Origin: a virus
Taxonomy: Duplodnaviria; Heunggongvirae; Uroviricota; Caudoviricetes
Reading direction: 5' to 3' (one strand)
Virus record (IMG/VR): IMGVR_UViG_2537561709_000006
Length of the DNA stretch: 10,166 nucleotides
In this document: in pieces, positions 1 through 3,000 of the stretch
Layout: each line of letters starts with the position of its first letter
Position numbering within the stretch: position 1 is the stretch's first letter
Made by a program: the position numbers

Positions 1-3000
1 CTGCTATGTAATAGAGTTTTTTTAGCCTGTAACCTCTTGACGGCATTGAATTGCTTTTGTTATGAGTTGTAAGCCAATGTTATCATCTTGTATTGGGGTG
101 GTTATGAAGGATGGTGCGCTGCTCAGGAGTTCTTCACTTTTTATTGCCTACATGGGATGCCTTGGATGGGGGAGTGCTTATTTCTATGGATGGGGTACTT
201 CTTTTTACTACGGCTTCCCATGGTGGATTGTAGGTGCAGGTGTTGATGATGTTGCCAGAAGTTTATTTTTTGCAGTTATCGTCATTGCTATATTTCTTAT
301 CGGTTGGGGTATTGGTGTTGTATTCTTTTTCGCAGTGAAAAGAAAACATTCTATGCAAGAGCTAAATGTATTTCGCCTTTATTTTGCTGTGGAATTATTG
401 TTTGTGCCGGCAATTATTGAGTTTTCTATATTGAGACAGAAGATTCAGGTACCTCTTTTGCTACTGTCAGCAGCGATTGCGCTGGCGGTCACAATTTCGA
501 TAAGATCTTATGGGCGATTTTTATCGGTATCATGCTTCTATGATAAGCCATTTATAAAAAAACATTTTTTTGAGATTGTGATGATTGCTTTTGTGGCATA
601 TTTCTGGCTTTTTTCATTTCTGACAGGATATTACAAACCGCAGTTTAAGAAAGAATATGAAATGATTAATTATAATGATGGTTGGTATTATGTTCTTGCT
701 CGTTATGATAATTGTCTGGTTTTGTCTACTTCTTTCAATGCAGGTAGTAAAAGGTTTGTGATTTATCAATCAGCACAAGATAAGAATCTTCAGGTTGATA
801 TTGTAAGGACCAGAATTTAATTGGCTGCATAAATAATATTTTAAGTTGCAAGTTGGCTATTCGTAGGAATAGAACCTTAGGCATGCTGAATGCGTTTCCT
901 GAACATTGTTTTATAAACTGTGTCTGCTTGCTGTTGTGATCCTGCTTTTAGTGATGGTGATGATGGATTTCACCAGCAGGATAATGTTGGTACTGACTGA
1001 TGGCGCTCTGGTCTGCGGCATTGTGGTATTGCTGTGGCCGATGATGAAAGAACAGAATGAATAATTCTTGACTTTTTTGTTTACTGTTTATTAAAAAATC
1101 AACCGCATGGTGAATCCTCCTTGGAGGGGCTAAATGATCGAGTTTTAAGGGCACGTAGCGAGTTCTGTTTGATCATTGCAGAACTTAGCGGGAGGCGCCA
1201 TGCGTACATCACTAATGTTATTTCCTTCTATCATTTTCCTTGTGAGTTCTGGCTGCGCATGGCGCGGCCTTTTTTTTATGACCTGCCACTGGCAGATGGT
1301 CATCCTGTGATTTGATTCCGGTTCCGGCTTTTTAACTCTGTTCCTGTACACGGGAGAAATTCTATGTCGATTAATCGTTATGATATTGGTTACAAGAAGT
1401 ACCACGTATTGTGTTGAGATAGAAAGCATGGTGCCAGAGGTAAATGCAGCAGCATAATAAAAAAGAGCCAGCGCAGAAGAGAACGGGTAAAAGAGTCTGC
1501 GCTGGCGTGGGGATATTCCCCGTGGAGAAATGATATGTAACACACATCGGGAACCTTTCTATATAAACATTATCATTATTGTCAATCATAACAGTCAGGT
1601 ATTATGACGTTTATGCATCAGGGCCATCAGGAATTAACTGGTGGCTTTTTATTGTTGTCAGCTTCCGGATAACGGGAGACGGGGTATGTACCAGATGGAA
1701 AAAATAACAACAGGTGTGTCATACACCACGTCAGCGGTGGGGACGGGATACTGGCTACTGCAGTTGCTGGACAAAGTCTCCCCATCCCAGTGGGTGGCAA
1801 TAGGCGTATTGGGTAGCTTGGTGTTTGGCTTGCTGACGTATCTGACAAACCTTTATTTCAAGATTAAAGAAGATAAGCGTAAGGCTGCGAGAGGTGAATA
1901 ATGTCGCCATCATTACGCAAGGCTGTTGCTGCTGCTATTGGTGGTGGGGCTGCTGCCATAGCGTCTGTGCTCATCACTGGTCCGAGTGGTGACGATGGCC
2001 TGGAAGGTGTCAGCTACATACCATACGAAGATATCGTTGGCGTATGGACTGTATGTCACGGACACACCGGAAAAGACATCATTCCCGGTAAAACGTATAC
2101 CGAAGCAGAATGCAAAGCCCTCCTGAATAAAGACCTTGCCACGGTCGCCAGACAAATTAACCCGTACATCAAAGTCGATATACCGGAAACAACGCGCGGC
2201 GCTCTTTACTCGTTCGTTTACAACGTGGGCGCTGGTAATTTCAGAACATCGACGCTTCTTCGCAAAATAAACCAGGGTGATATCAAAGGCGCATGTGATC
2301 AGCTACGGCGCTGGACATACGCTGGCGGTAAGCAATGGAAAGGGCTGATGACTCGCCGCGAGATTGAGCGTGAAGTCTGTTTGTGGGGGCAACAATGAGC
2401 AGAGTAACCGCGATTATCTCCGCTCTGGTTATCTGCATCATCGTCTGCCAGTCATGGGCGGTTAATCATTACCGTGATAACGCCATCGCCTATAAAGAAC
2501 AGCGTGATAAAAAAGTCAGTGAGCTGAAGCAGGCGACCGCCACCATTACTGACATGCAGCAGCGCCAGCGTGCTGCTGATGCACTCGATGCTAAATACAC
2601 GAAGGAGTTAGCTGATGCGAAAGCTAAAAATGATGCTCTTCGGCGCAAGCTTGATAATGGTGGTCGGGTGTTCGTCAAAGGAAAATGCCCTGTGCCATCC
2701 TCAGACGAAACCTCCAGCGCCTCCGGCATGGGCAATGATGCCACCGTCGAACTCTCTCCAGTTGCTGGACGAAACGTTCTCGGTATCCGGGACGGAATTA
2801 TCCGCGACCAAACAGCACTGAGAACGCTTCAGGAATACATCAGGACGCAATGCCTTCGATGATAGCGATAATTTTACTCATCATCCTTCACATCTGGCTC
2901 TGTAGACAGGGTGGTGCTCACTTCTGGAGTGAATCATGGTTAAACATCTCATTGCTGATGCTTGATATTGAGCATCTGGCGCGCGGTAAGGGGCTGCGTT

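What the first reader, a model, noticed from the sequence alone, without database searches (positions are those of the whole stretch)
37..820. AT-rich cargo gene for an unrecognised polytopic membrane protein directly upstream of the lysis module
The ORF (track 62-820; preferred start 104) is visibly far more AT-rich than the lysis and head genes (by eye roughly mid-30s % GC against over 50%; not computed), indicating separate horizontal acquisition. Its product has about five hydrophobic helices dense in Trp/Tyr/Phe/Gly and a roughly 60-aa polar C-terminal tail (YYKPQFKKEYEMINYNDGWYYVLARYDNCLVLSTSFNAGSKRFVIYQ...), and I cannot place it in any family. The slot between the Q/late-regulatory region and the holin is a classic moron hotspot in lambdoid phages (stx, porins, exclusion genes). 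A single-gene membrane superinfection-exclusion, abortive-infection or envelope-modifying function is plausible but unproven. It has its own candidate promoter (37-66).
Basis: partly seen in the sequence, partly recalled or inferred. Interest (0 to 1): 0.72.

Follow-up and report, generated by a model that had tools for sequence, protein, structure and literature searches.

The report
AT-rich membrane-protein moron of unknown function
This is a real, well-conserved gene (ECs0816 of E. coli O157:H7 prophage Sp3) for a five-helix inner-membrane protein of the already catalogued but functionally uncharacterised STM1630/"TfpB" family, a mobile gene that recurs next to toxin and virulence genes in gut and mucosal pathogens.

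Summary
ORF 104-820 (238 aa) has 36.5% GC against 52.6% for the lysis and head genes (z = -6.9). It encodes five TM helices plus a ~60-aa beta domain and is under purifying selection (dN/dS ~0.12-0.2).

"Cannot place it in any family" is out of date. The gene is ECs0816 of Sakai prophage Sp3 and is 100% identical to a phage 434 protein. It belongs to Pfam PF27470 "TfpB", PHROG 1521 and RefSeq's "STM1630 family protein". None of these has a known function.

It is the first gene after Q and tR', the slot stx occupies in Stx phages. With a DUF3927 gene it forms a cassette found behind two different Q genes. It is 866 bp from the holin, not directly upstream.

The family is small and limited to Enterobacterales, Pasteurellaceae and Neisseria. 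It is mostly non-phage:
- divergent from eltAB on ETEC plasmids
- on Shigella pINV-size plasmids
- beside sseJ in Salmonella
- beside lpxR/pmrD elsewhere
- a lone insert in Pasteurellaceae

The topology is N-in with a periplasmic C-domain, and no catalytic residues are conserved. No fold match was found.

My best reading is a stand-alone, non-enzymatic envelope/host-adaptation protein rather than a phage-cycle protein. Superinfection exclusion is not excluded. The function remains untested.

The parts
104..820 (+). Coding sequence of the STM1630/TfpB-family (PF27470) inner-membrane protein: 238 aa, equal to ECs0816 of Sakai Sp3 and CPT_434_68 of phage 434. Older RefSeq records start it at 77; the longest ORF starts at 62.
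   Evidence: ORF. Homolog N-termini and lengths. RefSeq 238-aa annotation. Family assignment. dN/dS 0.12-0.2. Structure model with pLDDT 79.7.
37..66 (+). Candidate sigma-70 promoter of the cassette: TTGACG, 18 nt, TG-n-TATGAG. Unproven.
   Evidence: Sequence. Not reported by the scan and not above chance. Both elements align with the ETEC copy. They lie within the block identical between two prophages with different Q/tR'. An alternative TTGTTA-18-TATCAT at 57-86 was reported by the scan.
94..100 (+). Shine-Dalgarno-like GGGGTGG upstream of the ATG at 104
   Evidence: Read directly from the sequence. No comparable motif lies upstream of the ATGs at 62 or 77.
906..1064 (+). DUF3927 small membrane-protein gene ('TciB-like'), second gene of the cassette in E. 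coli prophages
   Evidence: Annotations. Co-transferred with the main gene behind two different Q genes. Absent next to homologs elsewhere.
1251..1277 (+). Intrinsic-terminator-like hairpin (GGCTGCGC-ATG-GCGCGGCC) followed by a T run, downstream of the cassette
   Evidence: Scan (L002 7251-7269 plus T tail). Annotated as a terminator in phage 434.
1..1100 (+). Approximate extent within the window of the AT-rich mobile block shared by the two O157 prophage copies. It starts about 50 nt upstream of window position 1, just after tR', and ends near 1050-1100.
   Evidence: Pairwise alignment of L002 and L047. GC profile.

Best explanation
Shown:
- The ORF is a genuine gene under purifying selection for a 238-aa protein of the STM1630/TfpB family (PF27470).
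- It is carried as AT-rich cargo, together with a DUF3927 gene, immediately downstream of the Q antiterminator, PR' and tR' of a lambdoid prophage (Sakai Sp3 type, also phage 434).
- Predicted anatomy is N-terminus in the cytoplasm, five TM helices and a small five-stranded beta domain in the periplasm.
- The best-conserved parts are TM1, the aromatic/Gly-rich first periplasmic loop (AY-Y-GWG...YG-PWW) and the juxtamembrane start of the C-domain.
- No polar catalytic-type residue is conserved across the family.

Inferred:
- The protein works alone and non-enzymatically at the periplasmic face of the inner membrane, by binding a conserved envelope component of the host cell.
- Its benefit is to the bacterium in its animal host, as an envelope or host-adaptation (lysogenic conversion) function, and not to the phage life cycle.
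- In the prophage it would be expressed at a low level from its own promoter and strongly by Q-dependent read-through after induction, as stx is in Stx phages.
- The molecular partner and phenotype are unknown.
For: Identity and reality:
- 100% identity to O157:H7 chromosomes and to the phage 434 protein.
- ECs0816.
- PF27470/TfpB, PHROG 1521 at E = 2e-154, 'STM1630 family protein'.
- dN/dS 0.12-0.2 among eight intact copies.

Position:
- Q, then a PR'-like promoter, then a terminator at L002 5939-5960, then the gene.

Autonomy and non-phage role:
- Only 3 phage records encode it.
- Chromosomal copy in Salmonella beside sseJ and in C. rodentium beside lpxR at the syntenic site.
- Present on 106 Shigella plasmids of pINV size.
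- Divergent from eltAB on ETEC plasmids in all five places shown; that protein is listed in 1,285 blocks of the index.
- Beside lpxR and pmrD in other E. coli prophages.
- A lone, usually AT-rich insert between housekeeping genes in Pasteurellaceae and a Neisseria MAG.
- DUF3927 is not linked outside E. coli prophages.

Host-adaptation lean:
- STM1630 groups with SPI-2 co-regulated genes such as ugtL, pagD, pagK and lpxO (PMC2639726).
- It was chosen for macrophage-infection tests on the basis of intra-macrophage RNA-seq, and its promoter -10 box is disrupted in ST313 strain D23580 (bioRxiv 10.1101/689075). Canals et al. list it among genes D23580-downregulated during macrophage infection (bioRxiv 10.1101/450098).
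- The neighbouring lpxR is Ler-activated in EHEC and EPEC (PMC3891560).

Anatomy:
- AlphaFold2 model with pLDDT 79.7 and pTM 0.73.
- Positive-inside counts agree in all three subfamilies.
- Conservation map and absence of conserved polar residues.
Against: - No experiment or homology ties the protein to any envelope process.
- The Salmonella deletion had no intramacrophage replication defect.
- Its hypermotility in a screen is not among the phenotypes named in the follow-up study's abstract, whose discussion raises polar effects as a possible cause of some screen phenotypes.
- Adjacency to lpxR, pmrD, eltAB and sseJ may only reflect shared residence in AT-rich cargo hotspots. lpxR is near in only about 3 of 10 context types seen.
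- No data show that ECs0816 itself is Ler- or Pch-regulated.
- The promoter is unproven.
- The equation of the Salmonella homolog with STM1630 rests on synteny and the RefSeq family name, not on a direct sequence check against LT2.
Confidence: 0.45

Rival explanations
1. Superinfection-exclusion or abortive-infection protein. A prophage-expressed inner-membrane protein that blocks DNA entry of incoming phages at the periplasmic face of the membrane, or triggers membrane failure on infection.
For: - It is single-gene membrane cargo in a classic moron slot of lambdoid prophages.
- Its distribution is sporadic and mobile, with several divergent paralogs per genome in some Pasteurellaceae and up to four places per E. 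coli genome.
- The conserved periplasm-facing surface could mask a conserved host channel used for DNA entry.
- A candidate promoter travels with the gene.
Against: - No PADLOC hit.
- No sequence or fold similarity to known exclusion proteins.
- Only 3 of 50,697 phage records carry it.
- Most contexts are non-prophage: the Salmonella and Citrobacter chromosomes, Shigella pINV-size plasmids and ETEC toxin plasmids.
- The most conserved region is nearly invariant across Enterobacterales. From general knowledge, proteins in an arms race with phages tend to diversify.
- STM1630 is reported among SPI-2 co-regulated genes.
Confidence: 0.2
2. Orphan immunity protein against a membrane-targeting bacteriocin or contact-dependent toxin (pore-forming colicin, CDI or T6SS effector), kept as a stand-alone protective gene in crowded mucosal niches.
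For: - It is a polytopic inner-membrane protein without catalytic residues.
- It occurs as stand-alone AT-rich single-gene inserts at different sites in Pasteurellaceae and Neisseria, with paralogs.
- The family is restricted to host-associated Gram-negative bacteria.
Against: - No toxin gene is adjacent in any locus examined.
- From my own knowledge, known pore-former immunity proteins are smaller (3-4 TM) and lack a periplasmic beta domain. No similarity to them was detected.
- The 'colicin tolerance' wording attached to the neighbouring TciB/DUF3927 gene is, as far as I recall, a homology-only name taken from phage P1 annotation, and it concerns a different protein.
Confidence: 0.12
3. Accessory of the late lytic programme. 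A membrane protein made with the lysis genes that tunes holin timing or envelope breakdown, or helps release cargo toxins.
For: - It is the first gene of the Q-antiterminated late transcript, upstream of the holin, SAR endolysin and spanins.
- Homologs lie next to secreted toxins: eltAB and STb.
Against: - It is absent from almost all lambdoid phages, including the Stx phages in the collection.
- It is divergently transcribed from eltAB and found in chromosomal sites with no phage or toxin.
- Phage 434B replaced about 5.5 kb, including Q, the late promoter and the lysis genes, with DLP12 prophage sequence and is a viable phage (PMC9119081). The 434 record marks its 'region of 434B nonhomology' as covering this gene.
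Confidence: 0.06
4. Functionless hitchhiker. A selfish or decaying ORF that persists only because it sits in recombination hotspots.
For: - No phenotype is established.
- The promoter is silenced in Salmonella ST313.
- There is a decayed remnant in CFT073.
Against: - dN/dS is 0.12-0.2 over near-saturated synonymous divergence, with intact 237-238 codon frames in eight genera and contexts.
- Strongly conserved motifs reach as far as Pasteurellaceae and Neisseria.
Confidence: 0.05

Closest known systems
STM1630 family / Pfam PF27470 'TfpB' / PHROG 1521 (uncharacterised membrane proteins)
   Same: Full-length membership. All 103 first-pass homologs carry PF27470. PHROG 1521 matches residues 31-252 of the long ORF at E = 2e-154. 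RefSeq names the identical protein 'STM1630 family protein'. The architecture is shared down to 12-29% identity.
   Different: Nothing structural. The O157/434 version differs only in context: the Q-to-holin slot, paired with DUF3927. The family has no assigned function. The origin of the name 'TfpB' could not be traced. My recollection of a tfpB ORF in the Moraxella pilin-inversion region is unverified.
Lambdoid-phage morons of the Q-to-S slot (stx, nanS-p esterase, lpxR, pmrD)
   Same: Same slot directly after tR'. It is AT-rich relative to the phage backbone, flanked by a possible promoter and a terminator, dispensable for the phage, and exchanged as a cassette between prophages with different Q genes.
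   Different: Those morons have known biochemical activities. This one has none, and unlike stx it is an integral membrane protein that stays in the cell.
Phage superinfection-exclusion membrane proteins (P22 SieA, T4 Imm, HK97 gp15)
   Same: Prophage-borne, single-gene, inner-membrane location. This comparison is from my own knowledge of these proteins.
   Different: No detectable sequence or fold similarity. The size and architecture differ (5 TM plus a beta domain). Most family members are not in prophages.
Small horizontally acquired inner-membrane virulence modulators of the PhoP/SsrB regulons (e.g. UgtL)
   Same: STM1630 falls in the same co-regulated cluster as ugtL, pagD, pagK and lpxO (PMC2639726). 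It is an AT-rich, horizontally acquired inner-membrane protein.
   Different: There is no homology, and no evidence that this protein modulates a sensor kinase or lipid A. The resemblance is by co-regulation only.

Membership tests
STM1630 / TfpB family (Pfam PF27470) | Significant full-length sequence match to family members or the family profile | tested here: met
   103 homologs, all pre-annotated PF27470. A profile search finds 72 clusters with the same architecture. PHROG 1521 at E = 2e-154. RefSeq product name 'STM1630 family protein' on the identical protein. The PF27470 model itself is not in the local Pfam copy, so it could not be scored directly.
STM1630 / TfpB family (Pfam PF27470) | Shared architecture: N-terminal A-Y-x-Y-G-W-G...Y-G-x-P-W-W motif, about five TM helices and a C-terminal ~60-aa beta domain | tested here: met
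   Alignments, model, conservation map.
Moron (Juhala/Hendrix sense: autonomous cargo unit in a phage genome) | Composition different from neighbouring phage genes | tested here: met
   GC 0.365 against 0.526 +/- 0.023, z = -6.9. GC3 0.314 against 0.49-0.63.
Moron (Juhala/Hendrix sense: autonomous cargo unit in a phage genome) | Present or absent between otherwise related phages, and dispensable | tested here: met
   Only 434 and 2B8 carry it among 50,697 phage records. The same cassette sits behind two different Q genes. The 434 record marks this gene as inside the region replaced in the viable phage 434B.
Moron (Juhala/Hendrix sense: autonomous cargo unit in a phage genome) | Own promoter and terminator allowing expression from the repressed prophage | tested here: inconclusive
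   There is a terminator-like hairpin at 1251-1269. The promoter at 37-66 is a weak consensus match, not above chance, and is partly conserved with the ETEC copy. No transcript data are available for this copy.
Superinfection exclusion / anti-phage defence systems | Homology to a known or candidate defence protein | tested here: not met
   No PADLOC hit at E <= 1. No relevant Pfam, NCBIfam, PDB or fold match.
Superinfection exclusion / anti-phage defence systems | Protection against phage infection when expressed | not testable with these tools
   This needs plaque, adsorption and DNA-entry assays.
Core phage lysis or late function | A conserved ortholog at this position in related phages | tested here: not met
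   Related lambdoid and Stx phages match only the holin end of the 1-1700 query. The protein is found in only 3 phage records.

The most novel reading that the evidence does not exclude
The STM1630/TfpB family could be an unrecognised, widely shared envelope factor of animal-associated Gram-negative pathogens. It would act at the periplasmic face of the inner membrane together with outer-membrane and lipid A remodelling functions (LpxR, PmrD, the PhoP/SsrB or Ler regulons) to change surface properties or resistance to host antimicrobials. That would explain why it travels with toxin and effector loci: eltAB, the stx slot, sseJ and Shigella pINV.
Probability: 0.15. Interest if true: 0.7.

Novelty: already known. 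Interest (0 to 1): 0.35.

Why it matters
The gene has been annotated for years as ECs0816, a 'membrane protein', and now belongs to named families. It is therefore not a discovery as a sequence feature.

What remains open is its function. The same conserved protein is present in:
- about a fifth of complete E. coli genomes (1,197 of 5,426), usually in two copies in O157:H7
- 106 Shigella plasmids of virulence-plasmid size
- ETEC plasmids, directly beside the heat-labile toxin genes
- Salmonella, where it is conserved and belongs to the SPI-2 co-regulated gene set

Despite this, it has no assigned role. A defined phenotype would fill a gap in the accessory gene repertoire shared by several major enteric pathogens. 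It would also show whether the recurrent linkage to lpxR and to toxin loci is functional or just shared hotspot residence.

Tried and rejected
1. Sequence-family searches (Pfam-A local copy, NCBIfam, PADLOC) gave no meaningful hit. PDB sequence search with a profile gave none at E <= 10.
3. Origin of the Pfam name 'TfpB': five literature searches found only type IV pilus proteins or unrelated acronyms. The two Moraxella papers I recalled are not held, and cluster members are all 'hypothetical protein'. My idea that the name comes from the Moraxella pilin-inversion ORF tfpB is unverified. The genome scan found Pasteurellaceae and Neisseria but no Moraxella.
4. 'TciB' lead from the phage 434 annotation. 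It refers to the neighbouring DUF3927 gene. The name appears in P1-related papers; that it is a homology-only name from the P1 annotation is my recollection. It says nothing about the main gene.
5. Obligate partnership with DUF3927 is rejected. The partner is absent next to homologs outside E. coli prophages.
6. Ler/Pch co-regulation with lpxR: no data for ECs0816 were found. Only lpxR, its neighbour E2348C_0683 and, weakly, Q are listed.
7. A conserved upstream regulatory region across all contexts is not seen (49% column identity), apart from the O157/ETEC -35 and -10 blocks.
8. ORF 1121-1315 as a third cassette gene: its reading frame is broken in phage 434 and the terminator lies inside it, so it is probably not a gene.
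9. Rfam and tRNA scans of the window found nothing.
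Full report
**1. What is in the sequence**

The window is 100% identical over bases 1-1700 to an E. coli O157:H7 chromosome and 99.9% to EDL933. The same stretch is 98.8% identical over bases 1-1388 to phage 434.

In Sakai the region is prophage Sp3, and the ORF is ECs0816, annotated 'membrane protein'. 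Upstream lie lpxR (ECs0814, opposite strand) and the Q antiterminator (ECs0815).

The ORF listed at 62-820 is real. The start is best placed at the ATG at 104:
- Eight homologs from different contexts begin at the aligned position and are 237-238 aa.
- Newer RefSeq annotates the identical second O157 copy as 238 aa.
- GGGGTGG precedes the ATG at 104.

GC is 0.365 (GC3 0.314). Every 717-nt window downstream of the holin start has 0.47-0.57 (mean 0.526, sd 0.023, z = -6.9).

The protein is rich in Phe, Tyr, Gly and Trp. An AlphaFold2 model built on a 33-sequence alignment (pLDDT 79.7, pTM 0.73) shows five long helices followed by a five-stranded beta domain at residues 187-232.

Two points need correction:
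- The gene is not 'directly' upstream of the lysis genes. 866 bp separate it from the holin. They hold a DUF3927 gene (906-1064), a doubtful ORF, terminator-like hairpins and the scar of a deleted SASA-esterase gene that phage 434 still has.
- The promoter is only a weak consensus match in a region with no excess of such matches.

**2. Transcriptional setting**

In EDL933 and phage 434 the Q gene ends about 110 bp upstream of window position 1. It overlaps a PR'-like promoter, which is followed by a strong hairpin with a T run at L002 5939-5960. The 434 annotators mark that hairpin as a terminator.

The gene is thus the first gene of the Q-antiterminated late transcript, the position that stx occupies in Stx phages (established knowledge of lambdoid late regulation).

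A second O157:H7 prophage carries an identical copy behind a different type of Q. The two loci become essentially identical just after their different terminators (around window position 10) and stay alike to about window 1050-1100.

The mobile unit is therefore 'candidate promoter, this gene, DUF3927'. This is modest support for a promoter that travels with the gene.

**3. Family**

The local Pfam, NCBIfam and PADLOC libraries give nothing. The protein does match:
- PHROG 1521, function unknown, at E = 2e-154
- Pfam PF27470 'TfpB', carried by all 103 homologs in the large protein collection
- RefSeq's 'STM1630 family protein'

An exhaustive profile search of 1.84 billion cluster representatives finds only 72 clusters. 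Named members come from the following taxa:
- **Enterobacterales:** E. coli, Shigella, Citrobacter, Salmonella, Klebsiella, Enterobacter, Cronobacter, Yersinia and Mangrovibacter
- **Pasteurellaceae:** Mannheimia, Haemophilus ducreyi, Aggregatibacter, Pasteurella, Glaesserella, Gallibacterium and Avibacterium
- **Neisseria**

Pairwise dN/dS among eight intact copies is 0.12-0.2, so the protein is functional.

I could not trace where the name TfpB comes from.

**4. Context of relatives**

Only 3 of 50,697 phage records encode the protein. Elsewhere it occurs as follows:

| Context | Arrangement |
|---|---|
| Yersinia prophages | Directly after Q |
| Other E. coli prophages | Q, methylase, this gene, lpxR, pmrD, SASA esterase, holin |
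| C. rodentium chromosome | Next to a split lpxR, at the site syntenic with the Salmonella copy |
| Salmonella chromosome | Divergent from sseJ; STM1630 by synteny and by RefSeq's family name |
| 106 Shigella plasmids of pINV size | Flanked by IS elements in the one examined |
| ETEC plasmids | About 870 bp divergent from eltAB and near STb; this variant is listed in 1,285 index blocks |
| Klebsiella island | Near an STb-like gene |
| CFT073 pathogenicity island | Decayed remnant |
| Pasteurellaceae and a Neisseria MAG | Lone insert between unrelated housekeeping genes; more AT-rich than its surroundings in seven of the eight loci examined |

DUF3927 accompanies it only in the E. coli prophage cassette.

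The gene is present in 1,197 of 5,426 complete E. coli genomes. It is an autonomous, mobile gene of host-associated Gram-negative bacteria and not a phage-cycle gene.

**5. Anatomy and mechanism**

Lys and Arg counts in all three subfamilies place the N-terminus, loop 2 and loop 4 in the cytoplasm. Loop 1, loop 3 and the C-terminal domain fall in the periplasm.

Conservation is highest in TM1, loop 1 (SFYYGFPWW) and the juxtamembrane YKPQxKKEYE segment. All of these lie on the periplasmic side.

The residues conserved across the whole family are Ala, Gly, Tyr, Phe and Pro (A15, A25, Y26, Y28, G37, F167, G175, Y195). No Asp, Glu, His, Ser, Cys or Lys is conserved. This argues for binding or packing rather than catalysis.

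Fold searches found nothing informative.

**6. Published data on the Salmonella ortholog**

- STM1630 is listed among genes co-regulated with SPI-2, together with ugtL, pagD, pagK and lpxO (PMC2639726).
- It was picked for macrophage-infection tests on the basis of RNA-seq data. Its promoter -10 box is disrupted in ST313 strain D23580, and its deletion did not reduce intramacrophage replication (bioRxiv 10.1101/689075).
- It is among the genes D23580-downregulated during macrophage infection (bioRxiv 10.1101/450098).
- A screen found the deletion hypermotile (PMC4219756). The follow-up study's abstract does not list it among mutants with a motility phenotype (PMC4534456).
- The neighbouring lpxR is Ler-activated in EHEC and EPEC, but no data exist for ECs0816 (PMC3891560).

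**7. Verdict**

Identity is settled: a known, catalogued family member. Function is not.

I favour a stand-alone, non-enzymatic inner-membrane protein that acts at the periplasmic face for the benefit of the bacterium in its host, with confidence about 0.45.

| Rival | Confidence | Assessment |
|---|---|---|
| Superinfection exclusion or abortive infection | 0.2 | Possible, but without positive evidence; fits the family's distribution less well |
| Orphan toxin immunity | 0.12 | No toxin gene adjacent in any locus examined |
| Late-lysis accessory | 0.06 | Absent from almost all related phages |
| Functionless hitchhiker | 0.05 | Contradicted by purifying selection |

As a finding it is ordinary in kind: an AT-rich moron of unknown function in a known hotspot. 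The gene itself is already annotated. The point of interest is the recurrent linkage of an uncharacterised conserved protein with toxin, effector and lipid A-modifying loci in several pathogens.

Noticed in passing
window 906-1064 (+): A DUF3927 small membrane-protein gene, labelled 'TciB' or 'TciB-like' in phage 434 and 2B8 records. It travels with the main gene as a two-gene cassette behind two different Q genes, but is absent next to family members outside E. coli prophages.
   Followed up: partly
window 1121-1315 (+) and 1145-1543 (-): Two annotated 'hypothetical' ORFs look spurious. ORF 1121-1315 is frame-broken in phage 434 and contains the terminator hairpin at 1251-1269. The antisense ORF 1145-1543 (WP_012578864.1) spans the junction where homology to phage 434 ends (window 1388).
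   Followed up: partly
window ~1388-1620: Deletion scar. Phage 434 and the second O157 prophage have a 1.85-kb SASA-family carbohydrate esterase gene (nanS-p type) between the cassette and the holin. In this window homology to 434 stops at 1388 and the esterase is missing.
   Followed up: partly
window 6407-7531 and 7626-7988 (+): The portal gene appears split into two ORFs (374 aa and 120 aa), and RefSeq annotates two 'phage portal protein' CDSs. Together with a truncated bet upstream of the window, this suggests that Sp3/CP-933K-type prophages are defective.
   Followed up: no
L011-L015 and L010 (ETEC plasmids), around 3000-5700: A 59% identical family member lies about 870 bp upstream of, and divergent from, eltAB (heat-labile toxin) in every ETEC plasmid locus examined, with STb and astA nearby. 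This may mark the LT-I locus as a relic of a prophage Q-to-S cargo region. I recall that LT-II toxins are reported to sit in that slot of lambdoid prophages; I did not check this.
   Followed up: partly
L016-L019 (E. coli prophages), 5000-10700: A variant Q-to-holin slot holds an N6/N4 DNA methylase, the family gene, lpxR, pmrD and a SASA esterase. This puts two lipid A-related genes (lpxR, pmrD) together as phage cargo.
   Followed up: no
L020 (Citrobacter rodentium) 3863-4823: lpxR next to the family gene is split into two ORFs (164 and 175 aa), so it may be a pseudogene in this assembly. The site is syntenic with Salmonella STM1630, where sseJ occupies the lpxR position.
   Followed up: no
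L048 (CFT073) 4003-4896: A frameshifted remnant of the family gene lies next to a tRNA-Arg and IS fragments in the island that carries the iro salmochelin genes.
   Followed up: no
window 7741-9960 (+): A single 739-aa ORF appears to combine a ClpP/S49-like head maturation protease or scaffold region with the major capsid protein. I judged this by eye from the translation and did not test it.
   Followed up: no
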